Source: a virus (Duplodnaviria > Caudoviricetes). From it: a stretch of 64,000 bases of DNA. Of the stretch, positions 1 to 38,638 are shown one piece after another. The position numbers and the translations under genes are program-made. Position 1 is the stretch's first letter; each line of letters begins with the position of its first letter. The stretch is taken from the IMG/VR virus record IMGVR_UViG_3300028591_000078, positions 174,366-238,365 of that record; one strand, given 5' to 3'. The notes beneath the pieces are model-generated. The model did no database searches. It was not told the DNA's origin and saw only the letters and a list, made by a program, of their open reading frames with translations.

Positions 1-551
1 GTAGTTGCACTACCCTGAGCAACGCCAGGTTCAATAGCATTAGTATGCTTGATCTTATTGGTATTATCCATAGTAATGCCATCGCCCAGAGTTACAGCTT
101 CTACTTCATGTACATGACCATGTGAAGATGTAGACATCTTATACAGATTCATAGGCATAGCAGTATGAATCTGATCAGGGTCATCAGTATGACTATCAGA
201 ATCTCCAGAAGATGATACTAAGATCTTACCAGTAGCATCAGAAGTTACAGTTACATTACCAGCACCAACAATAGGTACTTCAGTAATAGGATTATCAAAT
301 ACAGTTTCTAATCTAAGACCAGCTTCACCATTAGTAGCGTTAGCTTTCTTAGATACAAGGTTATACAGATCCATTGTAGTGAGACGTTCTGCAACAGAAG
401 TATCTACTCCATAGTCTTCCCCATCAGGATCCGGTACTATCTTATAATTGGTAGCATTCAGCGGAGTAATTTCTCCAGCTTCGATTTTTCTCTTCCATTC
501 ACTAATGGTTATAGTAACCCTAGTGGACTCAGAGAGGTTCTCGCCAGCCAT
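1..551 (-). CDS. Tail fibre-like protein, truncated at window edge
   Basis: ATG at 551 with AGGAGG RBS; open frame MAGENLSESTRVTITISEWKRKIEAGEI... runs off the window; N-terminal I..SEW..KI..GEI motif is shared with fibre 30777-31811. Confidence 0.65.
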   Translation of the reverse strand, partial: MAGENLSESTRVTITISEWKRKIEAGEITPLNATNYKIVPDPDGEDYGVDTSVAERLTTMDLYNLVSKKANATNGEAGLRLETVFDNPITEVPIVGAGNVTVTSDATGKILVSSSGDSDSHTDDPDQIHTAMPMNLYKMSTSSHGHVHEVEAVTLGDGITMDNTNKIKHTNAIEPGVAQGSAT

Positions 552-24241: not shown

Positions 24242-24350
24242 AACAATAGTCCTAGGGAATTATCCCTAGGACTATATTTTATATACCTATATTAAGGCAA
24301 TATATGACTGTGCTCGAAAATGAGCACAGTCTTTTAAATTATTTTCTACA

Positions 24351-24391
24351 ACCTATATAACTTAAGTGTTTTACACTTAAGTTATATAGGT
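24351..24391. promoter_or_regulatory. Palindromic switch promoter 1 (18-bp arms, loop TTTTA), pointing away from 24420
   Basis: acctatataacttaagtg-tttta-cacttaagttatataggt; minus strand AACT-TAAGTG-TA, plus strand AACT-TAAGTG-TT. Confidence 0.7.
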
Positions 24392-24419
24392 GTAAAATTT
24401 TCGAAAGAAGGTTTGATAT

Positions 24420-25148
24420 ATGTCTTTATGGGTTAATGAAAATGGAGTAATGAAAGAGATTACTGATGTAAATAAAAGCAATGCTATAAATATAGTAAAA
24501 CTTGGAATAGATGATCTTGATGTAACTGCTGATCAGGTAAAAAACTATATTATAAATTGGACTGGTTGGAATAAGGCAGCTTTTAATGATGAATATAAAG
24601 GTGAATTACTAATTCCTATAAAAACGGTTAATATTGGATGTGCCCCTGAGCTTATAGGAATTAATTATACAAGAGAATATTTTTATCAAGATGATATAGA
24701 TGATAGTAATGATTATTCAAGTTATGACCTTTTTATATTATCTAATACAACAACTACGGTAACAAAAACAACTATAGAAAGAATCGGATATAGCTATGTA
24801 GAAAGAGGAGATTTTGGAATCTCTGTAGATCTTAATATATTACGTCAAGGAAAGTATGCTAATCTTAAAGCAGAATATTCTTATAGCATGCCTTTTACAA
24901 CAGAAACTAATCAGGTTTCTACAACACGCAATGGTCGAACTATTACATATAGACCGGTAATGACACCTATGAAGTGCGTTGTAATGCATTTATCTGGATC
25001 AAATCTTATATTCTATCAGTCAGCAAATATTTATTCATATGGCGGAGAACATGAAACTACTTCTGCACTTAGAAATAATCTTAGAGTTCAAGCTAGTTCG
25101 ACTGGTGGTAAAGGTATAGCAATGTACACTATACCTATATTACATTAA
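24420..25148 (+). CDS. Tail-tip/adhesin paralog 1
   Basis: MSLWVNENGVMKEIT; IPIKT...GC.P shared with 31918-32607. Confidence 0.65.
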   Translation: MSLWVNENGVMKEITDVNKSNAINIVKLGIDDLDVTADQVKNYIINWTGWNKAAFNDEYKGELLIPIKTVNIGCAPELIGINYTREYFYQDDIDDSNDYSSYDLFILSNTTTTVTKTTIERIGYSYVERGDFGISVDLNILRQGKYANLKAEYSYSMPFTTETNQVSTTRNGRTITYRPVMTPMKCVVMHLSGSNLIFYQSANIYSYGGEHETTSALRNNLRVQASSTGGKGIAMYTIPILH

Positions 25149-25237
25149 GTAAATATTTCCAATTAATCTATGTATAACTTTATAATACTCTTGTACATAT
25201 AGTCTTAGATGACTATATGTATAGGAGGTTATTATAT

Positions 25238-25510
25238 ATGTCTAATAATAAGCAACCATTTTTATTTGACATAGATTCTGGAAATATTGGGGTAGGAGAA
25301 GATACTCCAATTATACAATTTAAGCATCCACCAAAGATTGTAGTATTATATCTATATGATACAAGAAGTATTTATAATCCTATGAAAGTTATAACTCTTC
25401 ATCAAGATACTTCTAAACACATCTTTGGTACTAACTATGTAGAACTACAAGGAAAATATCTAATATTTAATATGAGTACCGATGGTTTCTCATGGCTAGC
25501 ATTTTTCTAA
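25238..25510 (+). CDS. Small tip-domain-like protein lacking the family N-terminal motif
   Basis: Start MSNNKQ after AGGAGG; FKHPPKIVVL resembles family F.PK motif; ordinary late promoter at 25176-25187. Confidence 0.5.
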   Translation: MSNNKQPFLFDIDSGNIGVGEDTPIIQFKHPPKIVVLYLYDTRSIYNPMKVITLHQDTSKHIFGTNYVELQGKYLIFNMSTDGFSWLAFF

Positions 25511-25514
25511 AACT

Positions 25515-25544
25515 AATCCCTAGGGTATTAATACCCTAGGGATT
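25515..25544. terminator. Bidirectional terminator between convergent genes
   Basis: Perfect palindrome aatccctagggtatt/aataccctagggatt; related CCTAGGG hairpins at 24246-24275 and 26531-26557. Confidence 0.7.
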
Positions 25545-25551
25545 TATTGTT

Positions 25552-25980
25552 TTAATAGAAGATGATTAGTTCACCATCTTCATATTTATAACTACTGCTA
25601 CCATACGTTGTAGAATCGGATCCATTTGAAATTTCAATAGATAATTTTTTAGTTGAATCATTATAGGAATATTTATAATGATATCGTCCAGTACTACCAT
25701 TATTATTATTTATTCCTACAAAGCTACCACTAGACCCTGAACTAGTATCTATGTTTAATCTGTCAACTCCATCACTATTAATACCAGAAGAACTTGGTTC
25801 TGTATATCTATAAAAACACATACAAAATTTTGGAGCGCTAGGAAGATCAACAGTTTTATTTAATGAACCAGTACTGGTTGATGCTTTAAAAGATTTTATT
25901 CCTGTTAATCCAGAACCAGCAGCAAGATATTCATCAGTTAAACTAGTTACAGTACCATCTTCATTAGCATATATTGCCAT
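25552..25980 (-). CDS. Tail-tip/adhesin paralog 2
   Basis: MAIYANEDGTVTSLT; close paralog of 26565-26972. Confidence 0.65.
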   Translation of the reverse strand: MAIYANEDGTVTSLTDEYLAAGSGLTGIKSFKASTSTGSLNKTVDLPSAPKFCMCFYRYTEPSSSGINSDGVDRLNIDTSSGSSGSFVGINNNNGSTGRYHYKYSYNDSTKKLSIEISNGSDSTTYGSSSYKYEDGELIIFY

Positions 25981-26028
25981 AATAAGCCTCCTTATGAATG
26001 TAAATAAATTTTATTCCTATTTATTTTG

Positions 26029-26058
26029 CTAAACTTAAAAGTAAACTTTTAAGTTTAG
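26029..26058. promoter_or_regulatory. Palindromic switch promoter 2 (13-bp arms), pointing away from 25980
   Basis: ctaaacttaaaag-taaa-cttttaagtttag; plus strand AACT-TAAAAG-TA. Confidence 0.7.
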
Positions 26059-26140
26059 TCGAAAATTAAAAATTACATACTCACATGCTGCCTAAGTATA
26101 TGAGTGGTAAAAATTTTTGATCAAATTAATTTTTAAATGA

Positions 26141-26169
26141 CTAAACTTTCAGTTTTACTGAAAGTTTAG
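26141..26169. promoter_or_regulatory. Palindromic switch promoter 3 (12-bp arms), pointing away from 26193
   Basis: ctaaactttcag-tttta-ctgaaagtttag; minus strand AACT-N5-TA (one short of consensus). Confidence 0.55.
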
Positions 26170-26192
26170 GAAAGAAAGAGAAATGCATTTTT

Positions 26193-26525
26193 ATGGCTGT
26201 ATATGCTAATGAAGATGGTACTATTAAAAATCTGACTGATATAACTAATACTGGTTTTACAAAAATTACAATGGGAATTATAGGTTCTAAGGGTACTATA
26301 TCAAAAAATGTTGGTTTTACTATAAAACATTGTTTATTTATTGGAATTAGAGAAAGTGGCGGAGACAGTTATCCTGAAATACAGTCTAATACATTTGCGG
26401 TTGATAGTGGATCTATATATGTAGGAGGATATGATTACGCAAATGTATCATTTTCTGGAACTACTATTTCCTATAGTAATAATGGTAGTAGCAACAGAAA
26501 TGTTGTTTATATAGCATTTGGATAA
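26193..26525 (+). CDS. Tail-tip/adhesin paralog 3
   Basis: MAVYANEDGTIKNLT; VGFTIKHCLF; ends YIAFG. Confidence 0.65.
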   Translation: MAVYANEDGTIKNLTDITNTGFTKITMGIIGSKGTISKNVGFTIKHCLFIGIRESGGDSYPEIQSNTFAVDSGSIYVGGYDYANVSFSGTTISYSNNGSSNRNVVYIAFG

Positions 26526-26564
26526 ATAAAATCCCTAGGGTAAAATACCCTAGGGATATTTATT

Positions 26565-26972
26565 TTAATAAAAGACTATCATTAGACAATCCTCATATTT
26601 TCTATCTTCTGAAGTTTGATTGGTACCAGCGTGTCCATTATTTATACTAATTACTAGCTGTTTTGTTGATTCTATATAATTATAGGTATATAAATAACTG
26701 TTTGGTATACTTCCATTTGAATCAAATTTACCAACCCAATGGCCACTTAGATTAACAGAATATCCTAGATATGAGTGATATTCAAGGCCACCAGCAGTAC
26801 CACTTATAAGTTTATTATATGTATAAAAACATAAAACAAATTTTGGCTTGCTATCAAGCGTTATAGTAGTCGATTTAGTAAAAGCTTTTATTCCTGTTAG
26901 CCCAGAATCAACAGCAAGATATTCACCAGTTAAATCAGATATAGTACCATCTTCATTAGCGTATATAGCCAT
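26565..26972 (-). CDS. Tail-tip/adhesin paralog 4
   Basis: MAIYANEDGTISDLT; paralog of 25552-25980. Confidence 0.65.
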   Translation of the reverse strand: MAIYANEDGTISDLTGEYLAVDSGLTGIKAFTKSTTITLDSKPKFVLCFYTYNKLISGTAGGLEYHSYLGYSVNLSGHWVGKFDSNGSIPNSYLYTYNYIESTKQLVISINNGHAGTNQTSEDRKYEDCLMIVFY

Positions 26973-27020
26973 AGTAAACCTCCTTATGAATGTATTTTAT
27001 TTTTATTCCTATTTATTTTG

Positions 27021-27050
27021 CTAAACTTAAAAGTAAACTTTTAAGTTTAG
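27021..27050. promoter_or_regulatory. Palindromic switch promoter 4, pointing away from 26972
   Basis: Identical to 26029-26058; no gene is served in the direction it currently reads. Confidence 0.7.
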
Positions 27051-27157
27051 TTGCTTGTAAAATTTTACATATGGCCATACTGCCTAAGTATAAGAATGAT
27101 TAAAATTCTATATTTGATTAAATAATAAAGCCGTAGGGAAATTCCCTACGGCTAATT

Positions 27158-27742
27158 TTATTCATCATCGTATACACTAGAAAGTTCTTTTCCAATATCT
27201 GTAACTCCAGCTTCATCATTAGATATCTGCTCTGTTGCTTCCTCATCTTCATTAAATGATTTTGCTGCCCATTCAGATATACCAATATCTTTAGTATCTT
27301 GGACGAATTCATCTTTACGAGTATATACTTTTATAGCATCAAGTACATATTGATCGAGCTTCATAGCATCTATGAGTTTTAATATATTAGGACTCAATCC
27401 ATACTCTGACCCACATTCAAATAAACGCTCTTTAGCAACTCCAAGTATTGCCAGATAATACTCATCTTCAGTATTGAAATCACGTCTATTTAAAGATGCT
27501 ATCTTGATTGCATCCTGTGCTACCTGATCAATCTGTTCGAGAATAAGTGTAAGATAGTCATCTACATCCATAGTGACTTCAGATTTTGCAGACTTCTTTC
27601 TACGAATCTCTAAGATCAACATAGCAAGATTTACCATTACAAGTACTACTACTGCTACTATAAGTAAAACACTAGTAGCCTCATTCTCAGGTGTCATTAC
27701 CTCGGGATGAGATTCTGCACTAAGTAAAATAGTATTCATCAT
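27158..27742 (-). CDS. Single-TM membrane protein
   Basis: Start MMNTILL after AGGAGG; hydrophobic VLLIVAVVVLVMVNLAMLIL then RRKK. Confidence 0.6.
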   Translation of the reverse strand: MMNTILLSAESHPEVMTPENEATSVLLIVAVVVLVMVNLAMLILEIRRKKSAKSEVTMDVDDYLTLILEQIDQVAQDAIKIASLNRRDFNTEDEYYLAILGVAKERLFECGSEYGLSPNILKLIDAMKLDQYVLDAIKVYTRKDEFVQDTKDIGISEWAAKSFNEDEEATEQISNDEAGVTDIGKELSSVYDDE

Positions 27743-27759
27743 CTTAAACCCTCCTCTTA

Positions 27760-29412
27760 TTAGCATACATAGTTATTATTCGTATTATTATTAGCAACAA
27801 TTCCAGACAGTCCTTTACCTCTTAAGAGGTTATTGCTGAAAATGTTGTTCTGGCCATTTACATATATTGTATACTCATCATCTTTGTAGTCTTTAGGATC
27901 ACCATTTCCACGGACTATAGTATTATATGCAAAAATATTGTATTTCGGTACTACATCTGTAGAACCCTGAGCAGCATTCAGCAGAGCGATACCAATCTTG
28001 CAATTAATAAGATGATTATTCTCTATCTTATTATACTGAGTATTAGAGTAGAAAGATGCTACATAGATACCAAGATTACAATCTATGGCTTTAGAGAATA
28101 CTATAGAGTTTGTATAGCAAGGAGTATTGACATCAGATATTATCCAGAAGCCATACTTACAATTCTTAGCAGTACAGTTCTCTATAATATTATTATCTCC
28201 AGTAATCTTGATACCATGTCTACACTCTACAGTAACATTCTCGATTCTATTATTGTTACCATGTACACATATATTACCCCAAGGACGTTCAATAGGACCA
28301 ATAAGTCCCATAGAAGATATACTGAGATTTCTAAGAGTTATTCCAGAACCCTTGATATCAAATACATACTGCTCAGTCTTCTTATCAAACATATCCATAT
28401 GTATAGAGTTGGTAATCTTAACACCAGATTCACCTACTATTTCAACATCGTTTCTATTGATAATAATAGGCTTTCTGGTAGTATATGAATTATATGCTTT
28501 AAGAAGAACTATCTTTCTAGCATTCACATTATTGAGCAGCTTGGCAAATACTTCATGAAGAGAATCATCCTGTCCAACAACGAAGTCTGCACCTGTATAT
28601 TCAGGACCTATAGTATATACCTTAGGTTCGAGTCTTACTATCGGAACTTTAGTATCTCTATATACTAACTGATTACCCTCAAACTGAATAGCTTCGAGTT
28701 TCATCAGCATTTCAGGAGACATAAGTCCAGACTTATAATAGGTTACAAGGTTATTATCAGCCTTACTATCCCAAGATGAAATCTGCTCATCAGATACATG
28801 ACGGATATTCTCATTAGAAGGATGGATATAATTATTAGCATTATAGTCTATAGACTTAAGCTTATCATAGTCCTTTGCTGTAATAAGACCATCGATCTCA
28901 CTAGTAGCAAGAGGATAAGTGAACATCTTTAAAGCTACCCACTTACCAGCAGTGTAACGATATCCTATGCCTTCATCATTTACTGGCACAAACCAGCCCT
29001 CTTCTATATTACTAAGACCAGAATACTTCTGTTTAAATTCTTCAGTATTCTTTACTGCTGGCTGCCATTTCATACCCATAGTAGCAGCTGCAATTTTATT
29101 ATCAGTTTCACTACGAGTATACTTATCAAAGATCTTAGATCTTTCTTCTTTAGTAATATGAATAATAGCGTTATTAGTATGGGATCTAAGCTCAGATCTT
29201 ACAAGGTCTGCTTTAGCCTTAGAGCCCTTAACAGACTCTTTATTATTCCATTCATCAGTCTTCTCTTTAGTAAGATGAATATTCTGATTAGTTATATGAG
29301 CGAGCATTCTCTCATATATTATAGGATCAACAGAGACATTCTCCTGAGTAATATTAGTAGTAGTTTCTTCTGCCTTAGAAGAATTGTCTGATATAATTCC
29401 AATCGGTTTCAA
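27760..29412 (-). CDS. Tail spike/fibre with right-handed beta-helix (pectate-lyase-like) domain
   Basis: TTG start after GGGAGG; HxxNxxIH repeats; GNNNRIENV/GDNNIIENC beta-helix repeats. Confidence 0.7.
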   Translation of the reverse strand: MKPIGIISDNSSKAEETTTNITQENVSVDPIIYERMLAHITNQNIHLTKEKTDEWNNKESVKGSKAKADLVRSELRSHTNNAIIHITKEERSKIFDKYTRSETDNKIAAATMGMKWQPAVKNTEEFKQKYSGLSNIEEGWFVPVNDEGIGYRYTAGKWVALKMFTYPLATSEIDGLITAKDYDKLKSIDYNANNYIHPSNENIRHVSDEQISSWDSKADNNLVTYYKSGLMSPEMLMKLEAIQFEGNQLVYRDTKVPIVRLEPKVYTIGPEYTGADFVVGQDDSLHEVFAKLLNNVNARKIVLLKAYNSYTTRKPIIINRNDVEIVGESGVKITNSIHMDMFDKKTEQYVFDIKGSGITLRNLSISSMGLIGPIERPWGNICVHGNNNRIENVTVECRHGIKITGDNNIIENCTAKNCKYGFWIISDVNTPCYTNSIVFSKAIDCNLGIYVASFYSNTQYNKIENNHLINCKIGIALLNAAQGSTDVVPKYNIFAYNTIVRGNGDPKDYKDDEYTIYVNGQNNIFSNNLLRGKGLSGIVANNNTNNNYVC

Positions 29413-29471
29413 TTGAAGTCCTCCCTTCAAAATTTGGTGGTCGGGATAGATATCTATCCCGACCGATTTAT

Positions 29472-30689
29472 TTAAAGATCTTCAGGATGGATCTCAGCAT
29501 CATAAGAGTATCCATGAGGATGCATTGCAGTTGTAGGAACATGACGCATTGCAGGTCTAAGATCATGATGGTCAAGATCCCATCTGTCCTTAGATATCTG
29601 GTAATATCTCATACACTTAAGAGATTCCAAGCAAGGATCAGGTACAGTAAACAGCGATGCAGATGTACCAGCTTCAAGCTTGATATATTCTATAGTAGCA
29701 TCTGCTTCAGAAGAAGCCATAAGTCCTACATAGTAATTATCTACAGGCTCAGCGATATTGAATGTATACATATTCAGACCACTAGCACCACAGAGCTTAG
29801 TACCATTGGTAGCAGTAAGCAGATAGATATTAGCACTACCAGTAAGCTTAGCAGAAAGTGTATAGTTTCCAGCAGGAAGATGCTCTATGTACTGTACTAT
29901 ATTACCACCAGTAGCAAATCTTACTCTGATAGGATTGGACAGATAGAGTCCAGTATCATCAGCAAATATCTTACAACCATTAGTATACCATCTATCAACA
30001 GTATAACCAGTGATATCATAAGATACTTCTTCTCTCTGATTTATATAGAAAGAAGGATTGATAAGTATATTAGGTTTAGATGTAGACTGATCATAGGTAG
30101 CAGAACCACCTTCAGATTCTGTATTACATCTTACAAGTTCGAGTGCAGGATCAGGATCTACATACATAGTACCATTTTCACCATGCTCGATCTTTACATA
30201 CTGAAGAATTATATCTTCACCAGAGTACACTCTGATAACGAACTCATTGGTTACAGTATTATATACTATTCTAGGACCAATCTGAGTTACCTGTTCCTGA
30301 TAGAAATAGCTATTATTGGTAGCATCTCTAATAAATGCATCCCATGTAGCTTCATATCCAACAGTCTTACAAGAGATAGAAAAGAGACTTCCTACCTCTA
30401 TATTTCTAGTAAGCTTCTGAGATATATTAATATAAGCATCAGAAGTACCACTTACTCTTACTCTGAGACCCTGTTCTACAGGATTTATCTCAAAAGATAC
30501 ATCAGGAGACTGAGAGCTTGTAACAGTCCAGTTATTTACACATGATTTATTGAATTCTGTATAAGAATCTTTACCCGAAGTATTGATCTTAAAGTTTGAA
30601 TTGATCAAAAGATTGGGGTTGCATATAGTATTAGGCGAGACGATTCTGGCATTTCCAGCAATCATGTTGCTTCCAATTGCAAGAGACAT
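29472..30689 (-). CDS. Tail fibre-associated protein with tandem carbohydrate-binding-like domains
   Basis: Two NLLIN.xF.IN(Q) domains; YTVDRW; CMRYYQ. Confidence 0.65.
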   Translation of the reverse strand: MSLAIGSNMIAGNARIVSPNTICNPNLLINSNFKINTSGKDSYTEFNKSCVNNWTVTSSQSPDVSFEINPVEQGLRVRVSGTSDAYINISQKLTRNIEVGSLFSISCKTVGYEATWDAFIRDATNNSYFYQEQVTQIGPRIVYNTVTNEFVIRVYSGEDIILQYVKIEHGENGTMYVDPDPALELVRCNTESEGGSATYDQSTSKPNILINPSFYINQREEVSYDITGYTVDRWYTNGCKIFADDTGLYLSNPIRVRFATGGNIVQYIEHLPAGNYTLSAKLTGSANIYLLTATNGTKLCGASGLNMYTFNIAEPVDNYYVGLMASSEADATIEYIKLEAGTSASLFTVPDPCLESLKCMRYYQISKDRWDLDHHDLRPAMRHVPTTAMHPHGYSYDAEIHPEDL

Positions 30690-30776
30690 ATAGGATTTCC
30701 TCCTTTTGAATTGATATTTAATATAAAGTTAAGAGAAGCAATATTAAACCCTACCCATATGGGTAGGGTTAATGTA

Positions 30777-31811
30777 TTAGGTATGAGTTCCATACAGGTA
30801 TCCAGCAGGACAAGTTGTAGTATCTGCAGCTCTAGTACCAAATCCTATATTTCTTAAACAGCTAAGATAATAGTAGCTATCACCAGTAGAAGTCTTATGA
30901 TTCTCAGTTGTTTCAGCAAGACTACTTGCATAGTTTGCATTTATTGCATTTAATGCAGAGCCACCAGCAGAATCTGATCCGGCATAATTATGTGTATGGG
31001 ACTTAGGAGCATAAGCAGTGTCATGGTTATGAGTAGCAATAGCAAAGTATGAATCAGGTCTATATGCCGCGCTATCTATAGCATGAACCTTTATATTCTG
31101 AACAGAACCATTTATAGTAAACTGTATATTACCATTTATAGAGCTTTCAGCAGCACTTGTAACACCAGTATTAGTGATTGTAGATCCAGTTACATTTATA
31201 CCAGTACCACCAGTATATGCAGTACCAGCAGGCAGAGGTGCAGTTGCAGTATGATCATCACCATATGTATATACAATATTACCGTTTTCGACATTGATAG
31301 ACTTTACATATGTACCCTTGATATTATTACCGCTCTGATCAGCAATAGCCTTATCAGCAGTACCATGAATATTACCAGTAAATCCATACTGCGATCCAAT
31401 GCTACCATCATCACATACATAGAGATGTCCTATAACAGCGCCATCGTGAAAGTATATATGCTTAGCGATATGAGTTTCACCCTGATCATTTATAAGGGCA
31501 ATACCAGTTTCACCAGTATCAGAGATCTTATATCCATTGATTGAATCTGCATTCAGATCAGGCATAGAATCTACAGTAGTTTTCAACCATTCTTTATCTA
31601 CAGATATAGTACCAGTAGATGCGATATAGATTATACCTTCACCGGCCTTAATAGATGATCCACTACCAGGATCTACATAGTCATCATATATATAATATAC
31701 TGTCTTGGTGTTATGATTAATCTCACCAGTACTAATCTTCAAAAGCCATTCGGATTTCTTTATTGGAACAGGCTCATTATTACGATTTTTAAGTCCGTTT
31801 ATTACAGGCAT
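30777..31811 (-). CDS. Tail fibre protein ending without a large receptor domain
   Basis: HNHD/HTH metal motifs, YTGGTGI, C-terminus CPAGYLYGTHT; late promoter at 31842-31853. Confidence 0.7.
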   Translation of the reverse strand: MPVINGLKNRNNEPVPIKKSEWLLKISTGEINHNTKTVYYIYDDYVDPGSGSSIKAGEGIIYIASTGTISVDKEWLKTTVDSMPDLNADSINGYKISDTGETGIALINDQGETHIAKHIYFHDGAVIGHLYVCDDGSIGSQYGFTGNIHGTADKAIADQSGNNIKGTYVKSINVENGNIVYTYGDDHTATAPLPAGTAYTGGTGINVTGSTITNTGVTSAAESSINGNIQFTINGSVQNIKVHAIDSAAYRPDSYFAIATHNHDTAYAPKSHTHNYAGSDSAGGSALNAINANYASSLAETTENHKTSTGDSYYYLSCLRNIGFGTRAADTTTCPAGYLYGTHT

Positions 31812-31885
31812 TGAATACTCCTCCTTTTATAAAGTGTATTTTAATATAAAGTTAATACTCTCCAAATAGCTAGTGATAGAAGAAT

Positions 31886-31913
31886 TACCCATGTACCAAT
31901 TGGTACATGGGTA
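31886..31913. terminator. Terminator after paralog 5
   Basis: Perfect palindrome tacccatgtaccaa/ttggtacatgggta; near copy at 33632-33656. Confidence 0.65.
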
Positions 31914-31917
31914 TATA

Positions 31918-32607
31918 TTAATCATCAAAAGTAAGAATATTGAATACTCTAACTTTATCATTACCTGGATATACAGATATATTTGATTTGGCTTGAGATT
32001 TTGTAACACTACTATTTAACTGAAAAGCTTGTGATATAATAAAATTATTACCACTAAGAGTATATAGCATTACATTACTGTCAACTCCTCTAAATCCTGG
32101 TTTATATGGATATATAATGTATTGTGATTGCCCAGAACCTATTTGAATCGGAGCTCCACTTAATTCGAGCATAGCCCACGAATAACCAGTATTATTGGAA
32201 TAATAACTTTGACCTTGTTTTAACTTATACCATGACTGGGAACTAATAAGTTCATTTTGAAAACTATAAATAGTATTAGTACTTGTGGCTGTCAAACTTG
32301 TATATACTTCATCTGTATAAGTAGTTGCATCAGCATCTGGATCATCACTTCGAAAATTTAAAGCAATATAAGAAGGTGTACATCCAAGATCTATAGTCTT
32401 TATTGGAATTACAAAATTTTCCATATTTGCATATGTTGATGTAGGAGTTTTAGTTCCCCATCTAGGATAATTATTAATTATAGTGCTTCTAAATTCAGCA
32501 GGACTCATATCACAAGTATCGCTAGTAATTTTAAAAGTTTGAAAGAACTTGGCACTTGCTTTACTAAGATCTTTAATACTACCATTCTCATTAACATATA
32601 CTGCCAT
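31918..32607 (-). CDS. Tail-tip/adhesin paralog 5
   Basis: Start MAVYVNENGSIKDL at 32607 after GAGGTG. Confidence 0.65.
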   Translation of the reverse strand: MAVYVNENGSIKDLSKASAKFFQTFKITSDTCDMSPAEFRSTIINNYPRWGTKTPTSTYANMENFVIPIKTIDLGCTPSYIALNFRSDDPDADATTYTDEVYTSLTATSTNTIYSFQNELISSQSWYKLKQGQSYYSNNTGYSWAMLELSGAPIQIGSGQSQYIIYPYKPGFRGVDSNVMLYTLSGNNFIISQAFQLNSSVTKSQAKSNISVYPGNDKVRVFNILTFDD

Positions 32608-32653
32608 ACTAAGGCACCTCACGTTCATTAAATTTTTATTCCTATTTATTTTG

Positions 32654-32683
32654 CTAAACTTAAAAGTAAACTTTTAAGTTTAG
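32654..32683. promoter_or_regulatory. Palindromic switch promoter 5, pointing away from 32607
   Basis: Identical to 26029-26058. Confidence 0.7.
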
Positions 32684-32770
32684 TCGAAAATTAAAAATTA
32701 CATACGGCCATAGCGAGGCAATATATGATCATACCCATTTTAGGGTATGATCTTTGAAATATTTTTCTAT

Positions 32771-32845
32771 AACCTATATAACTTATTGGTTTTACCAATA
32801 AGTTATATAGGTTTAAATCGTGTAAAACACTTAAGTTATATAGGT
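32771..32845. promoter_or_regulatory. Palindromic switch promoter 6 (19-bp arms) plus half-site with flipped loop
   Basis: aacctatataacttattgg-tttta-ccaataagttatataggtt (minus strand AACT-TATTGG-TA), then gtg-taaaa-cacttaagttatataggt. Confidence 0.7.
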
Positions 32846-32872
32846 GTAAAATTTTGAAGGAAGGTTTGATAT

Positions 32873-33625
32873 ATGTCTTTATGGGTTAATGAAAATGGTA
32901 CTATGAAAGAAATTGCTACAGATAAGGATAGTACTGGTGCATATAAATGTACTAGAGATCTTGTATACTGTAAATGGTCATATAACAATGTAGCACGAGA
33001 AGGATATCAAGGATATCAGGGTATTACTGCTGCTACATTAGGATTAACAAAAACTATATTAGTTGATAAAAAGACTGGTTCTGGTCAGAGTGGATCTTAT
33101 TCATATCCATCTCGTGATATAAGTATAAAAGATCTTGATGAAAGTTATAAAAAGACTATTTATACTGGAACATTTCCTCGTAATATGTGTCCAAATGCAG
33201 CAATGGTATCACAAATCAGAACTGATACACTAATCAGTTCTGATACTGGTTTGGTTTTAAAACAATATTTTATTAGTAATACTGCTGAATTTGATAAGTT
33301 TTTAGAAGTTGGTGATTCTTTTAGTAGTATTGTTGGATGCGGATACCCAATTGCAGATGATTATAGTAATAATGCCTCTAAATCTAGTGACCCTAGAAAT
33401 TGGTCGTCAAAAGTTGAACTGAGAGCTATGGGAGAATGCTTAGATGGTATTAATTATAGATTCTATGTAGTACTAGCTAGAACTTCTGACATTACAGAAC
33501 AGGCAGCTTTAACTACAAAACTGTATTCTTATCATAGATTAAATTCTCCAGGATTTGATTATAAATGGATTGGTACTTATTTAATTCAACATATACCATC
33601 ATACACTGAATATACTATAGAATAA
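32873..33625 (+). CDS. Tail-tip/adhesin paralog 6
   Basis: MSLWVNENGTMKEIAT; leader nearly identical to that of 24420. Confidence 0.65.
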   Translation: MSLWVNENGTMKEIATDKDSTGAYKCTRDLVYCKWSYNNVAREGYQGYQGITAATLGLTKTILVDKKTGSGQSGSYSYPSRDISIKDLDESYKKTIYTGTFPRNMCPNAAMVSQIRTDTLISSDTGLVLKQYFISNTAEFDKFLEVGDSFSSIVGCGYPIADDYSNNASKSSDPRNWSSKVELRAMGECLDGINYRFYVVLARTSDITEQAALTTKLYSYHRLNSPGFDYKWIGTYLIQHIPSYTEYTIE

Positions 33626-33688
33626 TATAAAACCCGTGTACCATTGGTACACGGGTATATTATTTTATTGAAAGCTCATTACGTTACC

Positions 33689-34006
33689 TTAATTGTATGC
33701 CTTTGTCTGTAAGTATATGATCTCATAGCCATATTCTTTTGCACAGATGTGTTCTATATTACATCCACGTGCAGTATTATATCCATCTACAAATGCAACG
33801 ACATCTGCATTAGACATAAGCTTGAGACTGTCTGCAAGATACCATAATGGCTTAGCATCTACAGGAGCATCCTTGAAGAAACTATCGATGATTTCTATCT
33901 CTTCTTCTCTATATCTTTCCTTTATTTCCTTGATTGCCTCTTCTCGTGTAGCAAGAATCTGCTCATCTGAGAGACTTCTCATCGGCTGAGAGATAAATAC
34001 CTTCAT
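33689..34006 (-). CDS. DUF4406 / nucleoside deoxyribosyltransferase-fold protein
   Basis: MKVFISQPM...ADVVAFVDGYNTARGCNIEH. Confidence 0.75.
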   Translation of the reverse strand: MKVFISQPMRSLSDEQILATREEAIKEIKERYREEEIEIIDSFFKDAPVDAKPLWYLADSLKLMSNADVVAFVDGYNTARGCNIEHICAKEYGYEIIYLQTKAYN

Positions 34007-34060
34007 AACTATATCATCCTTTCTTTTGAATATATTATATAGTTATTGAGGATTTGCCTT

Positions 34061-34465
34061 TTAATACACTACAAATACACCATACTTTATTGAACTGTCA
34101 CTTTTTACAATTAGTGTTGTTGCATTATTTGTATCTTTTGCTAAGTTAATATATGCTCCACCTCTACCAGCATTAACACTATAGTTCCAACCTATATTTC
34201 TACTAGTAATTTCCTCACCATTATAAGTAGTAAATACCATATCTTCAACTTTTATTATTACTGGAACTCTTACTGTAGTTTCTGTCTCCACATGGAGAGG
34301 TATAAGTACTATATATTTATAATTAGTATAATTAGGTATACTAACAGAATCATCCGTTGTTCTAGTACCAAAATATTTGATACCATTTATTACAAATCCA
34401 TTACTATAATCTGTTTTTTCAGTTAAGTTTTTTAAAGTTCCATTTTCATTTGCATAAATAGCCAT
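34061..34465 (-). CDS. Tail-tip/adhesin paralog 7
   Basis: MAIYANENGTLKNLT...NGFVINGIKYFG. Confidence 0.65.
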   Translation of the reverse strand: MAIYANENGTLKNLTEKTDYSNGFVINGIKYFGTRTTDDSVSIPNYTNYKYIVLIPLHVETETTVRVPVIIKVEDMVFTTYNGEEITSRNIGWNYSVNAGRGGAYINLAKDTNNATTLIVKSDSSIKYGVFVVY

Positions 34466-34480
34466 AAAATCAAAATCCTC

Positions 34481-34512
34481 CTAAACTTTTCAAGTAAACT
34501 TGAAAAGTTTAG
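34481..34512. promoter_or_regulatory. Palindromic switch promoter 7 (14-bp arms), pointing away from 34465
   Basis: ctaaacttttcaag-taaa-cttgaaaagtttag; plus strand AACT-N7-TA (one longer than consensus). Confidence 0.55.
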
Positions 34513-34594
34513 TCATTTAAAAATTAATTTGATCAAAAATTTTGGCTATTCATATACGGCCACAATGTGGTCGTATGTAATTTTTAATTTTTGA

Positions 34595-34624
34595 CTAAAC
34601 TTAAAAGTTTACTTTTAAGTTTAG
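34595..34624. promoter_or_regulatory. Palindromic switch promoter 8, pointing away from 34673
   Basis: ctaaacttaaaag-ttta-cttttaagtttag; minus strand AACT-TAAAAG-TA. Confidence 0.7.
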
Positions 34625-34672
34625 CAAAATAAATAGGAATAAAAATTATTTACGATCATAAGGAGGCTTACT

Positions 34673-35128
34673 ATGGCCGTATATGTTAATGAGAATGGTA
34701 CAGTGCAAACGTTAGCTACAGATGGCGAACCATTAAACATGTCAGTTCAACATTATACAGCAAAATTTATTTATGCATATGCTCAGAGTAATCCATGGCG
34801 TGGATCTGGCTTTGAAGACCAAAGTTTTACTTTACCATTTACTCCAAAAGCTTTTGTTGTAGCTTATGATAATGCAAAAATGCCAGTAGAACACGCTGAC
34901 AGTACAAACAGTCATCGTATTATAACATCAAGAGATATTGCAATAGGTGATAACTCAATAGATATAACTGCCTCTTTTACCACTAACCATAAAAGCGTTT
35001 ATTATCATTATTTTAAAATTAATGGTAATACAGTCACTATACCAAAGACTACATATACTAGTTTTGCTCTTCCTTCGGTAGCATCTCACACTTTCATAAT
35101 AAATTTTGATGTAATCTTTTTCTATTAA
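34673..35128 (+). CDS. Tail-tip/adhesin paralog 8
   Basis: MAVYVNENGTVQTLAT; LPFTPKAFVV. Confidence 0.65.
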   Translation: MAVYVNENGTVQTLATDGEPLNMSVQHYTAKFIYAYAQSNPWRGSGFEDQSFTLPFTPKAFVVAYDNAKMPVEHADSTNSHRIITSRDIAIGDNSIDITASFTTNHKSVYYHYFKINGNTVTIPKTTYTSFALPSVASHTFIINFDVIFFY

Positions 35129-35166
35129 ACAAAATTTACCCACAGGGAAAACCCTGTGGGTATTTA

Positions 35167-35601
35167 TTATGTAAGTCCGAATACAAGATACTTAGGATAA
35201 TAGTTTGCACCATTGTCATGAAACTTAATATTTAATCCAGTAGAATTTATTAGAGTTGCTTTTATTATTAATCCACCTCTACCAGCAGAACCACTATAGG
35301 CCCATCCAACAGATCTAGTAGTTGCTCCATTAAGGCCTCCAGAAGTTTGAAAAGTTAAAGGTGTTTCTAATATAAACATTCCACAAGAAAGTCGCATGCT
35401 TGCGGTAGGATCATCAGGCTGTATAGGAAGTCCTATGATATATTTATATCCTGTATAATTAGCAATATCAATTCCGACTTCAGTACTAGCATGCTCTACA
35501 GTACCAAGATACTTGATACCATTGATTACAAAACCATCACCATAGTCAGTCTTGTTGGTCAGTTCTTTCATTACACTGTTTTCATTAGCATAAATCGCCA
35601 T
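35167..35601 (-). CDS. Tail-tip/adhesin paralog 9
   Basis: Start MAIYANENSVMKELT at 35601; DGFVINGIKYLG. Confidence 0.65.
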   Translation of the reverse strand: MAIYANENSVMKELTNKTDYGDGFVINGIKYLGTVEHASTEVGIDIANYTGYKYIIGLPIQPDDPTASMRLSCGMFILETPLTFQTSGGLNGATTRSVGWAYSGSAGRGGLIIKATLINSTGLNIKFHDNGANYYPKYLVFGLT

Positions 35602-35642
35602 AACTCTTAAATCTCCCATATATAAAATTTTCAGTTTTATGG

Positions 35643-35685
35643 CTTAAGAATTATTACTAAGAACTTCTTAGTAATAATTCTTAAG
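35643..35685 (+). promoter_or_regulatory. Palindromic switch promoter 9 (21-bp arms, 1-nt centre), ON for 35732 and OFF for 35601
   Basis: cttaagaattattactaagaa-C-ttcttagtaataattcttaag; plus AACT-TCTTAG-TA, minus AAGT-TCTTAG-TA. Confidence 0.75.
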
Positions 35686-35731
35686 GTGAATTATGATAAA
35701 ACTGAAAATAAAATCATAGAAGGTTTTATTT

Positions 35732-36166
35732 ATGGCAGTATATGCAAATGAAAATGGCAATATTAAGGAATTAACTAGTAAGGTAGACCTTGGTAATGGC
35801 TTTGTTATAAACGGTATAGAATACTTAGGAGAATATCTTCCTTCTCAAAGAGATGGAACTTTTACTTTACCAAAACCATATACAAGCTATAAGTATTTAG
35901 TTGTGTATGATTTCTATGGTAAGAAAAATAATGGAGAAGCTAGCTGGACTAATGTAAAACAGCATTCATGCCTAGAATTTATAGATACATCACTGATTAA
36001 TCCAAGTGATAGATACACATATGATGGATATATGGTTGGAGGGGATGATCCAACTACAAGTAACAAATTATGCTGTATTATTGAATTTGGTAATACTACG
36101 ACATTAAGTATAGACTGTGGAAATTATTATAGTTATAATAGTATAAAATTTTTCGGTATATACTAA
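35732..36166 (+). CDS. Tail-tip/adhesin paralog 10
   Basis: MAVYANENGNIKELT...NGFVINGIEYLG. Confidence 0.65.
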   Translation: MAVYANENGNIKELTSKVDLGNGFVINGIEYLGEYLPSQRDGTFTLPKPYTSYKYLVVYDFYGKKNNGEASWTNVKQHSCLEFIDTSLINPSDRYTYDGYMVGGDDPTTSNKLCCIIEFGNTTTLSIDCGNYYSYNSIKFFGIY

Positions 36167-36171
36167 AAAAT

Positions 36172-36196
36172 AAACGGGTGGAAGTTCCACCCGTTT
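36172..36196. terminator. Bidirectional terminator ending the array
   Basis: aaacgggtggaa-g-ttccacccgttt with flanking A/T tracts. Confidence 0.75.
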
Positions 36197-36207
36197 TATT
36201 TTATGTC

Positions 36208-38304
36208 TTAGTCAATTACTAAAGCCTTGAAGTTCTCTTTATCCTCATCAGTCTTAAGCTCACCTATTCTTATAAGCTCCTTATATTCATAAGGAGTTAT
36301 ATAATAGATATACTTATAATACATCTTAATATCCTTGATAGGCCTAATTCTGTTGAATGGTAAGATCTTTCCAGCTGATAAGCGTAAGCGATGTAATATA
36401 AACAGATTTTTAATAGCACTACTTGGAAGATCAGTGCTATTGTTTATATCACCTAAGATACATTGTACTGTATCATTGCGAAGCGATATTATCTGATCTA
36501 TATACGGAAATGCATCATTTACACTTGCCGTGTAAACATAGTCAGAAAATAAATCATAAAACGTCGCTCTATTGGGAGCAAATCTACCAAAATAGTTCAT
36601 TGGTTCTACCGCATTCATATATGTCGAAAGATCTATCTTCTTGTTTATAAAGAGTCTAGGATTCTTTATAATTATCTCACGGCCATTATCTTCAGAGAAG
36701 TGATCGCATAAGATATTTACAAAGCTTACAGGAATATTAGGGTTATTAGCCCATTTTAATCCTCTAAAGTGAAGGACATCATTCCAGTATCCTAAACAAG
36801 ACAATATGATATTGTACCCAGCATGGCTATAGTATGCTCTATAGAAACTTATAGCATCATCTGTCATATAAGTCTCATTTGTATTAGCGAACGCATTTCG
36901 ATAATCAACAGTTTCAGGATGCTTCTCCCACTGATATTGAGTGATTACGAATGAGGATGCTGCACCCCAATCTATATACTTATCGAATGTAGCTGCAAAC
37001 AGCTCAGTTATAGCTACAGATCTTGATACAGTCTGAACAGCCTTGTGCTTATAAGGTTCTTCAAGCAATTCCAATATTGGAATTATAAGATTTATATCGA
37101 TCTGTGCTAATTTATAAATCAAGCTATTTATATAGGAAGGATACAACTTGACTGCATCTTTGAGCATCTCTGCTACATTAGCATACTTATAAGATTCATC
37201 AAGTATCCGATTAATTATGAATTCATTTGCATTTATTACTATATCAGATACCATGTTGTCTAAGTTCTTATCTTTCCACTTAGACTCTTCTTTAGATTCC
37301 TGATACAGATTGAATTCTTTATAGCAATACTTCAGCAGATCATCTAATACTGTAGTAGTAATATGAGGATCTCCAAGGAAGATACACATATCAGTGTGAC
37401 ACATACCAAGCCCAGTATCGAAACAAGAAATGAATCCGATCTCACTGTCGATTACTCTTTTAAAGATAGCTTTATACTCATTAGTAGTAAACTTTCTCAT
37501 TCCTTTTACCACCATAGTTGCAGCTATATGAGTAGGAATTTCAGATATGTCCTTATCTACCATAGTTCTGGCCATATCAATATCGCTCTCAGTGATACCA
37601 CTTCTACGAATATACCAGTCTACACCTGTGCCGAGCTTGTATTTGCTTATATTTATATTCCTATCATCAGAGTTAGACTTGCCATCCATTATACCTTTGA
37701 CAATCTTAGAAGTAAGCTTATTAGAATACTTGTCAAAGAAGCTACGCTCTATAAAGAATGGCGTATAAGTTGCTAATGCATTCCAGAAGATTCCTTTTTT
37801 CTGACTTTCCATATCCTCAAGTATCATATTGACACTAGTCTCATGATCATAGATCTTGACTATATCAATATTCTGAGCACTGAGAAGCCGGAAATGATGT
37901 GCTATATTAGTATATTCTGGTGCATATATAGCTTCTTGTTTTATCAAGCCGTAAGCTTTTACTTTAACAAGCCGATAAGTATTTGAAGCTAGTAACAGAG
38001 GAAAAGCTTTATCCCTATAAGCTATAGCCGCTTCTTTAGGGGTAGTACCTATATTGATAGAATACTCACCATAGTTAATATTATTGTAGCTGAAATGCCT
38101 ATTGCTATTAGTATTAAAGTACTCATTTGCAATCATGGTGATTCCAACTTCATCAATATGGGAGTTGTCAATGTCACCGAATTTGTCTAACAAGACATAT
38201 GCATCAAGTGCATCTTCTTTCTGAAGATAGAACGGAAAGTCAATGTGATAGTCTCTTACCAGCGGGCTTTCAATATTAAGATTCTGAATCTCTATAGGTT
38301 TCAT
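36208..38304 (-). CDS. Hypothetical protein
   Basis: 698-aa ORF; AGGAGG RBS; overlaps upstream stop. Confidence 0.65.
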   Translation of the reverse strand: MKPIEIQNLNIESPLVRDYHIDFPFYLQKEDALDAYVLLDKFGDIDNSHIDEVGITMIANEYFNTNSNRHFSYNNINYGEYSINIGTTPKEAAIAYRDKAFPLLLASNTYRLVKVKAYGLIKQEAIYAPEYTNIAHHFRLLSAQNIDIVKIYDHETSVNMILEDMESQKKGIFWNALATYTPFFIERSFFDKYSNKLTSKIVKGIMDGKSNSDDRNINISKYKLGTGVDWYIRRSGITESDIDMARTMVDKDISEIPTHIAATMVVKGMRKFTTNEYKAIFKRVIDSEIGFISCFDTGLGMCHTDMCIFLGDPHITTTVLDDLLKYCYKEFNLYQESKEESKWKDKNLDNMVSDIVINANEFIINRILDESYKYANVAEMLKDAVKLYPSYINSLIYKLAQIDINLIIPILELLEEPYKHKAVQTVSRSVAITELFAATFDKYIDWGAASSFVITQYQWEKHPETVDYRNAFANTNETYMTDDAISFYRAYYSHAGYNIILSCLGYWNDVLHFRGLKWANNPNIPVSFVNILCDHFSEDNGREIIIKNPRLFINKKIDLSTYMNAVEPMNYFGRFAPNRATFYDLFSDYVYTASVNDAFPYIDQIISLRNDTVQCILGDINNSTDLPSSAIKNLFILHRLRLSAGKILPFNRIRPIKDIKMYYKYIYYITPYEYKELIRIGELKTDEDKENFKALVID

Positions 38305-38561: not shown

Positions 38562-38638
38562 ATATGAATTCCTCCTTTCTATTACACTATAATAGTATAT
38601 ATCTGAATTTATTTTAAATATCATAATAAACACTTGAA

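What the first reader, a model, noticed from the sequence alone, without database searches (positions are those of the whole stretch)
24420..36166. Array of ten interchangeable tip/adhesin-like paralogs with a shared N-terminal docking peptide
Seen: ten 110-250 aa Ser/Thr/Gly/Asn/Tyr-rich ORFs start M[AS][IVL][YW][AV]NE[DN][GS]xxxx[LI] and then diverge into subfamilies (25552/26565; 34061/35167/35732; 24420/31918). They alternate in strand, mostly end at their own hairpin terminator, and flank three fibre/spike genes. Fibre 30777-31811 stops at CPAGYLYGTHT with no receptor domain. Established: T2/T6-type gp38 adhesins attach to the fibre tip through a conserved N-terminus and carry variable loops. 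Inference: the shared peptide plugs any paralog onto the same fibre, forming a host-range repertoire.
Basis: partly seen in the sequence, partly recalled or inferred. Interest (0 to 1): 0.8.

Follow-up and report, generated by a model that had tools for sequence, protein, structure and literature searches.

The report
Tagged tip-protein cassettes beside capped phage fibres
A 238-kb rumen-type jumbo phage carries ten self-contained small genes whose unrelated beta-rich proteins all begin with the same 16-residue peptide, next to two tail fibres that end in a shared short cap instead of a binding domain; this looks like a plug-in set of host-recognition tips, but attachment has not been shown.

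Summary
Exactly ten ORFs (110-250 aa) in the whole 238-kb phage genome start M[AS][ILV][YW][AV]NE[DN][GS]; shuffles give none. Codon third positions vary while the residues stay fixed, so selection acts on the peptide. Between the small and large classes only residues 1-18 align, so it is a tag on otherwise unalignable bodies. Each gene has its own perfect AT-rich palindrome (P9 and P10 share one) and an RBS, and nine have a hairpin just past the stop.

New here: the 344-aa fibre is a miniature of a 2,852-aa giant fibre just upstream. Only these two proteins share an N-terminal anchor motif and the C-terminal cap CP.G..YG.H[ST]. Distant fibres with the same shaft modules carry built-in 110-130-aa tips instead. 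The one good model (pLDDT 76) is a beta-sandwich whose best, weak structural neighbours are distal domains of phage receptor-binding proteins.

Docking of interchangeable tips is therefore the best reading (about 0.45), but it is untested; the fold evidence is weak and promoter timing is unresolved. The proteins are not gp38 homologues. The family is confined to one narrow phage lineage. The scan has noted analogous N-terminal-tag arrays, with other peptides, in other jumbo phages. Verdict: new variant of a known kind; interest 0.6.

The parts
24420..25148 (+). P1, tagged paralogue, large class (242 aa), tag MSLWVNENG
   Evidence: orthologues at 91% and 84%
25552..25980 (-). P2, tagged paralogue (142 aa)
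   Evidence: 47% identical to P4; orthologue P0011 at 76%
26193..26525 (+). P3, tagged paralogue (110 aa)
   Evidence: orthologue P0012 at 96%
26565..26972 (-). P4, tagged paralogue (135 aa)
31918..32607 (-). P5, tagged paralogue, large class (229 aa from the ATG at 32607)
   Evidence: 25.5% identical to P1 over 231 aa
32873..33625 (+). P6, tagged paralogue, large class (250 aa), tag MSLWVNENG
34061..34465 (-). P7, tagged paralogue (134 aa); the one with a usable AF2 model (beta-sandwich, pLDDT 76)
34673..35128 (+). P8, tagged paralogue (151 aa)
   Evidence: orthologue P0008 at 95%
35167..35601 (-). P9, tagged paralogue (144 aa from the ATG at 35601)
35732..36166 (+). P10, tagged paralogue (144 aa)
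30777..31811 (-). Mini-fibre (344 aa): N-terminal anchor motif SEW..KI..GEI, HxH block, C-terminal cap LRNIGFG..A..TTTCPAGYLYGTHT; candidate docking partner
3..551 (-). 5' end of the 2,852-aa giant fibre (genome 166358-174916). It has the same anchor motif, and its C-terminus (outside the window) carries the same cap
29472..30689 (-). 405-aa tail-fibre-like protein made of two tandem repeats of one domain
   Evidence: phrog_4492, E 2e-19; internal repeat seen in the sequence
27760..29412 (-). Putative beta-helix spike protein (start TTG at about 29412)
   Evidence: all matches weak or to unnamed families
24351..24391 (.). AT-rich perfect palindrome (19+3+19) 5' of P1
26029..26058 (.). AT-rich perfect palindrome (14+2+14) 5' of P2, followed by the box AGCAAAATAAATAGGAA
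26141..26169 (.). AT-rich perfect palindrome (13+3+13) 5' of P3
27021..27050 (.). AT-rich perfect palindrome 5' of P4, plus box
32654..32683 (.). AT-rich perfect palindrome 5' of P5, plus box
32771..32813 (.). AT-rich perfect palindrome (20+3+20) 5' of P6
34481..34512 (.). AT-rich perfect palindrome (15+2+15) 5' of P7
34595..34624 (.). AT-rich perfect palindrome 5' of P8, plus box
35643..35685 (.). AT-rich perfect palindrome (21+1+21) shared by the divergent genes P9 and P10
18056..18123 (-). Orphan cassette stub: promoter-like box, RBS, CTG, then the codons for SLWVNEN; it runs antisense into the SbcD-like gene

Best explanation
The ten genes are self-contained expression cassettes. Each has an AT-rich palindromic leader, an RBS, a 16-18-residue N-terminal tag, a variable beta-rich body and usually a terminator hairpin. 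They form an accessory host-recognition island of a jumbo phage.

The tag is predicted to be a small beta-hairpin (strand AIYA, turn NENG, strand TIKxLT). It is the only element all ten share, and it most likely docks each protein non-covalently on a common site of the tail-fibre apparatus.

The best candidate site is the conserved C-terminal cap (LRN.G.G..A..T.CP.G..YG.H) that ends both the 344-aa mini-fibre and the 2,852-aa giant fibre. Both fibres stop where related fibres of other phages continue into a built-in globular tip. The variable bodies would then serve as alternative or parallel receptor-binding tips.

Shown: the tag, selection on it at the peptide level, the cassette anatomy, the two capped fibres, and restriction to one phage lineage.
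Inferred: virion incorporation, docking, the cap as the socket, and receptor binding.
For: 1. The tag is unique to these ten genes in the genome.
2. In codons 1-9, 11 and 14 the second positions are invariant while third positions vary: Ala2 uses four codons, Gly9 three, Leu14 three. The upstream DNA is not conserved across all ten.
3. hhalign of the small class against the large class aligns residues 1-18 only (probability 92%, E 5.6e-7).
4. All 16 representatives found among 1.84 billion proteins keep the tag, although their bodies differ widely.
5. AF2 of P7 gives pLDDT 76: an all-beta core from about residue 29, with the tag as a low-confidence hairpin outside the core.
7. The composition is fibre-like and low in charge.
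8. The genes flank fibre genes inside a 16.8-kb island that is missing between the Dda and topoisomerase gene blocks of the relative G005.
9. Only the giant and mini fibres share the anchor motif and the cap. The cap is kept in homologues down to 39% identity while the stretch before it is variable or deleted.
10. Distant fibres with the same shaft modules carry built-in C-terminal domains of 110-130 aa instead of the cap.
11. Tag proteins and capped mini-fibres map to the same large contigs in a sister phage (236,709 bp) and in a more distant one (239,842 bp). G005 lacks the tag family, the cap and the giant fibre together.
12. There is a published precedent for the mechanism: N-terminal peptides of 7-29 aa attach secondary receptor-binding proteins (PMC6872550), shown experimentally in PMC13352976.
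Against: - There is no direct evidence of virion presence or of any tag-fibre contact.
- The large-class model failed (pLDDT 33).
- There is no sequence similarity between the paralogues and the built-in tips of distant fibres.
- No T4 gp10-like domain was found, though the search had no positive control.
- The cassettes do not carry the genome's late motif AACAT-N5-TAA in the sense orientation, and their leaders differ from the promoters of the fibre genes. Co-expression with virion genes is therefore unproven.
- Linkage of tag and cap in relatives rests on matching contig lengths, not on sequence in hand.
- The leader plus tag is also homogenised at the DNA level between some cassettes (92%), which explains part of the similarity without any function.
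Confidence: 0.45

Rival explanations
1. [quoted passage not shown] The ten proteins would be packed into the head, possibly after cleavage behind ..[AV]-N-E, and ejected into the host as diverse accessory or anti-defence proteins.
For: T4-type internal proteins are a diverse set that share only a short N-terminal targeting sequence (PMC3012670). Residues 5-7 are A/V/S-N-E in every family member; from memory this resembles the S/A/G-x-E protease sites of phiKZ-like phages, and I did not verify that here. Earlier notes of this scan describe N-terminal-tag arrays in other jumbo phages that were read this way (e1-1960559, e1-244043; unchecked here).
Against: The proteins are low in charge (K+R 6-10%), mildly acidic and rich in S/T/N/G/Y, like the fibres. 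They sit around fibre genes, not head genes. The weak structural neighbours are tail receptor-binding domains. Four of the ten have Val at the position where the recalled protease motif wants S/A/G. Conservation continues to residue 15, well past the putative cleavage site.
Confidence: 0.15
2. The proteins are not virion components. They act inside the infected cell or on its envelope, for example in superinfection exclusion, as decoys or lectins, or against host defences. The tag would then dock them on some other phage or host partner, or drive oligomerisation.
For: The cassettes have dedicated palindromic leaders unlike those of the fibre genes, and they lack the sense-oriented late motif; this suggests a separate regulatory class. 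They are independent, moron-like units with their own stops. A non-structural gene (DUF4406, nucleoside 2-deoxyribosyltransferase-like) sits inside the array. Unchecked earlier notes say this phage also uses a short peptide tag on its non-virion enzymes (e1-5496096).
Against: No signal peptide or membrane segment is visible in any of the ten. Their composition and weak fold matches point to exposed tail domains. They co-occur with capped fibres in three lineages.
Confidence: 0.2
3. The tag has no docking role. It is simply the conserved first hairpin of an old duplicated fold, kept alike by gene conversion of the 5' leader-plus-start module. The array is a diverged paralogue family of unknown, possibly redundant, role.
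For: The leader plus tag is 92% identical at the DNA level between P2 and P8 over 132 nt, and 90% over about 270 nt between two intergenic regions. This shows that the 5' module is exchanged between cassettes. AF2 draws the tag as a regular hairpin.
Against: Across the leader classes, synonymous sites vary while the residues stay fixed. The tag is kept in distant relatives whose bodies are under 30% identical. Only the tag aligns between the classes. In the model it lies outside the confident core.
Confidence: 0.15

Closest known systems
Branched receptor-binding-protein systems with a conserved N-terminal docking peptide (K1-5/K1E/SP6, G7C, Klebsiella KP32/KP34, PhiK64-1; PMC6872550, PMC13352976)
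   Same: Several different binding proteins of one phage begin with the same short peptide (7-29 aa), which attaches them to a common structural partner. The bodies are unrelated, and the peptide is private to a phage group.
   Different: Here the bodies are single small domains of 110-250 aa, not large trimeric depolymerase spikes. There are ten of them with one tag. No T4 gp10-like branching domain was detected (inconclusive); the candidate socket is a fibre C-terminal cap. Each gene is its own transcription unit with a palindromic leader.
gp38 tip adhesin on the gp37 long tail fibre of T2/T6/S16-type phages (PMC12032242)
   Same: A separately encoded small protein attaches by its N-terminus to the end of a fibre that has no binding domain of its own, and provides receptor specificity.
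   Different: There is no glycine-rich-motif polyglycine-II sandwich, no beta-helix domain and no Pfam match. The attachment element is a 16-18-aa tag, not a domain. There are ten copies instead of one, and diversity lies in whole bodies rather than in four hypervariable loops.
Capsid-targeting sequence of the T4 internal proteins IPI, IPII and IPIII (PMC3012670)
   Same: A short conserved N-terminal peptide is the only thing shared by a diverse, fast-evolving set of small phage proteins.
   Different: Internal proteins are packed in the head and the signal is removed by the prohead protease. The proteins here are fibre-like in composition and neighbourhood.

Membership tests
gp38 adhesin (T2/T6/S16 type) | C-terminal polyglycine-II sandwich built from five glycine-rich motifs separated by four hypervariable segments | tested here: not met
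   No paralogue has more than one glycine cluster, and glycine content is 4-14%. No Pfam match at E <= 1.
gp38 adhesin (T2/T6/S16 type) | Conserved N-terminal attachment domain that binds the tip of the fibre | tested here: inconclusive
   A conserved N-terminal element exists, but it is only 16-18 residues. Binding could not be tested.
gp38 adhesin (T2/T6/S16 type) | Monomeric protein on a trimeric fibre | not testable with these tools
   No multimer prediction was available.
Branched RBP system with conserved docking peptide | Short conserved N-terminal peptide shared by otherwise different binding proteins of one phage | tested here: met
   Ten proteins share the tag. Only residues 1-18 align between the classes.
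Branched RBP system with conserved docking peptide | T4 gp10-like branching domain in a primary RBP or adapter | tested here: inconclusive
   PF07880 gives no match in the genome, but no positive control rang, and only the N-terminal Pfam model was tried.
Branched RBP system with conserved docking peptide | Peptide required for incorporation of the protein into the virion | not testable with these tools
   Needs genetics or proteomics.
T4-type internal proteins with capsid-targeting sequence | N-terminal peptide ending in a prohead-protease site and removed on maturation | tested here: inconclusive
   [AVS]-N-E at residues 5-7 is invariant, but conservation runs on to residue 15. Cleavage cannot be tested in silico.
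T4-type internal proteins with capsid-targeting sequence | Small, highly charged, DNA-associated proteins (as I recall them; not checked in a paper here) | tested here: not met
   K+R is 6-10%, D+E 7-11%, pI 4.7-6.1, S/T/N/G/Y 38-54%.
Phage tail fibre (for the partner 30777-31811) | Homology to recognised fibre shaft modules | tested here: met
   It shares a 32-aa HxH block at 78% identity and two further segments with the 2,852-aa repeat fibre. More distant homologues carry the Pfam Phage_fiber_rpt domain.

The most novel reading that the evidence does not exclude
This is a split-fibre system. Both the giant and the mini tail fibre end in one universal socket, the conserved C-terminal cap. 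Ten separately transcribed single-domain tips plug into it through a 16-residue beta-hairpin tag. The perfect palindrome in front of each cassette would let the phage set which tips are made, so one genome could produce virions with different or mixed receptor specificities, without hypermutation or DNA inversion of coding sequence.
Probability: 0.2. Interest if true: 0.8.

Novelty: new variant of a known kind. Interest (0 to 1): 0.6.

Why it matters
If the tag does dock these proteins on the fibre caps, this would be a compact plug-in host-range system. It would have one socket, a 16-residue plug and single-domain tips small enough to swap freely, in a phage of rumen Bacillota, where receptor recognition is almost unstudied.

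It would extend the 'conserved docking peptide' principle from the large depolymerase spikes of Klebsiella and coliphages to small stand-alone tips in a jumbo phage with AR9-like promoter motifs. It would also give a defined peptide-socket pair for structural study.

The dedicated palindromic leaders, found almost nowhere else in the genome, point to a private regulatory circuit for the repertoire. That is a separate open question.

Tried and rejected
- **Family libraries:** Pfam and PHROGs on all ten paralogues gave nothing. A PDB profile search gave nothing.
- **Fold searches:** Foldseek against PDB and BFVD found nothing at E <= 1e-3.
- **Large class:** AF2 failed (pLDDT 33). The ESM Atlas hint of an aerolysin/ETX-like protein had a low shared-feature count, and no structure was available to test it, so I did not adopt it.
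- **Built-in tips:** there is no hhalign similarity between the paralogue profile and the built-in tips of distant fibres.
- **In-frame PSSM hit:** the best non-family hit (AINANYASSLAETTE, 11.9 bits) lies in frame in the mini-fibre. I dropped it because that stretch is variable or deleted in homologues.
- **Promoter motifs:** the AR9-type early and late motifs are absent upstream of the paralogues in the sense orientation. The ATAGG box is not a genome-wide signal.
- **Micro-inversion switch:** the asymmetric centre of the palindrome reads TT or TTT on the sense strand in 8 of 8 single-gene cases. This argues against free flipping, but reads or relatives' DNA would be needed to settle it.
- **DNA of relatives:** Scans of viral, metagenome and genome contigs and of GenBank phages found no relative of the paralogues, and none that shares more than shaft or HxH segments with the mini-fibre.
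- **Chance matches:** L009 and L010 (MAIYANENG in unrelated 71-75-aa ORFs) are at chance level for that scan.
- **Other features:** no tRNA or Rfam feature in the island.
- **Analogous array in a relative:** G005 has none, even with a different tag.

Full report
**Setting.** The window is the last 64 kb of a 238,365-bp virus record that CheckV rates 97% complete. Earlier notes of this scan call it a rumen or sheep-gut jumbo phage with two RNA polymerases. I took that as a lead only. The finding lies between replication genes. Upstream are an SbcD-like nuclease, DnaB and a Dda helicase. Downstream are topoisomerase II, a RecJ-like DHH protein and UvsX. In G005, the most complete fetched relative (229.5 kb; Dda about 45% identical), the helicase is followed within about 0.5 kb by homologues of window genes 40563 onwards. 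The stretch from 23.8 to 40.5 kb is therefore a lineage-specific island of about 16.8 kb.

A degenerate pattern for the first eight codons matches ten times in the window and never in 100 shuffles. It matches the same ten sites and no others in the whole genome. A PSSM of residues 2-16 scores the ten at 35-51 bits; the next best six-frame site scores 11.9, and three shuffled genomes reached at most about 7.9. Two starts must be moved to the ATG behind the RBS: 32607 and 35601. An eleventh, dead copy lies outside the island at 18056-18123. It keeps the promoter-like box, the RBS and the codons for SLWVNEN, but it starts with CTG and runs antisense into the SbcD-like gene.

**The shared peptide is a module under selection as a peptide.**
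- In codons 1-9, 11 and 14 the second positions never vary, while third positions do. Ala2 uses four codons, Gly9 three and Leu14 three. The 60 nt upstream are not conserved across all ten.
- A profile-profile comparison of the small class (A2) with the large class (A3) aligns residues 1-18 and nothing else.
- An exhaustive HMMER search of 1.84 billion representatives with the small-class profile found only 16 proteins. All begin MA[IV][YN][AVS]NE[DNGE]G..K.LT and end in a hydrophobic strand, and their middles differ widely.
- Eight of the ten paralogues have orthologues at 76-100% identity in sister phages. Residues 1-9 never change, and the other substitutions are spread evenly. The repertoire is inherited stably and is not hypermutated.
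- Part of the similarity is maintained at the DNA level. Leader plus tag is 92% identical over 132 nt between P2 and P8, whose bodies cannot be aligned. The whole P2-P3 intergenic region is an inverted copy, about 90% identical, of the P7-P8 region 8.4 kb away. The 5' module is therefore exchanged among cassettes as a unit.

**What the bodies are.**
- No Pfam, PHROG or PDB sequence match exists.
- AF2 of P7 with 11 sequences gave pLDDT 76 and pTM 0.67. The model has an all-beta core from about residue 29, with the tag drawn as a hairpin (strands 3-5 and 11-13) at pLDDT about 50, outside the core.
- Foldseek found nothing significant.
- The large-class model failed (pLDDT 33), so its fold is unknown. 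The Atlas hint of aerolysin-like features could not be tested.
- All ten are low in charge and mildly acidic, with a composition like that of the neighbouring fibre.

**The partners.**
- The gene just upstream of the window start (genome 166358-174916, minus strand; its 5' end is window 3-551) encodes a 2,852-aa fibre with about 17 copies of a 66-aa repeat and several HxH blocks.
- The 344-aa protein at 30777-31811 is a miniature of it. Only these two proteins in the genome have the N-terminal motif SEW..KI..GEI, and only these two end in ...TT.CP.G..YG.H[ST]. They also share a 32-aa HxH block at 78% identity.
- Homologues of the mini-fibre from 91% down to 39% identity keep the N-terminal 240 residues and the cap S.LRN[IF]G[FY]G..A....NCP.G..YG. 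The stretch between these is variable or deleted.
- More distant fibres that share the shaft modules do not have the cap. They continue into a built-in globular domain of 110-130 aa that ends in a hydrophobic strand. That is about the size of the small free paralogues, with the same style of ending, but no sequence similarity was detectable.
- In other words, this phage has two fibres that stop where related fibres carry a tip, and ten free tip-sized proteins that share one N-terminal tag.

**Co-occurrence.** The sister phage (longest contig 236,709 bp) holds orthologues of P1, P7 and the mini-fibre. A more distant phage (longest contig 239,842 bp) holds both a tag protein (P0018, MAINVNEEG...) and a capped mini-fibre (P0040). 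Another tag protein (P0019) and another mini-fibre homologue (P0039) have longest contigs of nearly the same length, about 11.6 kb. G005 lacks the tag family, the cap and the giant fibre together. These links rest on contig lengths, because no DNA of relatives could be fetched. One mini-fibre homologue is deposited in a Pseudobutyrivibrio MAG, which hints at the host.

**Regulation.**
- The genome holds 33 perfect palindromes with arms of at least 12 nt and a spacer of at most 4 nt, and 19 of them lie in the 12-kb array. The AT-rich class (GC <= 0.31, arms 13-21 nt) has nine members there. Between them they precede all ten paralogues, one being shared by the divergent P9 and P10. Only two others exist in the rest of the genome.
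- Four cassettes and the stub also carry the box AGCAAAATAAATAGGAA, which occurs nowhere else.
- The genome's main late-type motif is AACAT-N5-TAA. It has 45 sites 15-110 nt (mostly 30-55 nt) upstream of RBS-bearing gene starts, against 6.8 expected. The two fibre genes carry the variant TAACTTTATATTAAA at 41-42 nt.
- The palindromes contain AACTT-N5-TTT on the sense strand. In six of the eight single-gene palindromes the better-matching AACTT-N5-TAA lies on the antisense strand. The shared P9/P10 palindrome gives the good match towards P10 only.
- The centre reads TT or TTT on the sense strand in 8 of 8 single-gene cases. The arrangement is thus directional and fixed in this assembly.
- I cannot say when the cassettes are transcribed. 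That weakens the case for co-expression with virion genes.

**Comparison with what is known.** The mechanism proposed is the one described for branched receptor-binding systems. There, secondary binding proteins carry a conserved N-terminal peptide of 7-29 residues that docks on a T4 gp10-like domain of a primary protein (PMC6872550). For KP32, deleting the peptide abolished incorporation of the second protein (PMC13352976). It also resembles the gp38 adhesin on gp37 (PMC12032242). Membership in the gp38 family fails, because there are no glycine-rich motifs. The gp10-like socket was not found, although that test was inconclusive. The T4 internal-protein targeting sequence (PMC3012670) is the main alternative model for a shared N-terminal peptide; composition and neighbourhood speak against it here. 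Earlier reports of this scan describe arrays with other N-terminal tags in Salmonella and E. coli jumbo phages, and a fibre-plus-small-tip array in Bacteroidota. The general pattern has therefore been seen before on other DNA, but not this family, peptide or fibre cap.

**Verdict.** This is a real and striking feature. The most likely reading is a set of tag-docked, tip-like binding modules for two capped fibres (confidence about 0.45; the cap as the specific socket about 0.25). It is a new variant of a known principle rather than a new kind of system, and every functional step remains to be shown.

Noticed in passing
window 18056-18123 (-): Orphan stub of a cassette, 6 kb outside the island. 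It has the box AGCAAAATATATAGGAA, an RBS, then CTG in place of ATG and the codons for SLWVNEN, and it then runs antisense into the SbcD-like gene. It combines a P2-type leader with a P1-type tag, which shows that cassettes move and recombine at their 5' module.
   Followed up: partly
genome 166358-174916 (-); window 3-551 is its 5' end: Giant 2,852-aa tail fibre with about 17 copies of a 66-aa repeat and many HxH blocks. It shares its N-terminal anchor motif and C-terminal cap with the 344-aa mini-fibre.
   Followed up: partly
window 23786-40546: The whole stretch of about 16.8 kb (paralogues, fibres, spike, a 698-aa protein and small ORFs) is missing between the Dda helicase and the topoisomerase block in the related 229.5-kb phage G005. 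It is a lineage-specific island inside the replication module.
   Followed up: yes
window 25949-26080 and 34573-34704: Inverted repeats (92% over 132 nt; about 90% over ~270 nt) bracket an 8.4-kb segment that holds the fibre block. Recombination between them would invert the segment without changing which kind of leader serves which kind of gene.
   Followed up: partly
window 33689-34006 (-): A DUF4406 / nucleoside 2-deoxyribosyltransferase-like gene sits inside the array, with an early-type TATATAATAT motif 35 nt upstream. P7 has no terminator of its own before this gene.
   Followed up: no
whole genome: The motif AACAT-N5-TAA lies 15-110 nt upstream of 45 RBS-bearing gene starts, against 6.8 expected. 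A variant, AACTTTATA.TAA, precedes the two fibre genes, ORF 23786-24241 and a few others; a looser AACTT variant precedes topoisomerase II.
   Followed up: partly
window 29412: The spike gene most likely starts at the TTG at about 29412, behind a GGGAGGA RBS, and not at the TTG at 29430 that the ORF list gives.
   Followed up: yes
protein P0010 (another sample): A 124-aa variant of the P10 orthologue whose C-terminal third diverges abruptly, as after a frameshift. Cassettes seem to decay in some relatives.
   Followed up: no
protein P0044 (NCBI MBP5598495.1): A mini-fibre homologue with the cap is deposited in a MAG labelled Pseudobutyrivibrio sp., which hints at the host group of this phage lineage.
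   Followed up: no
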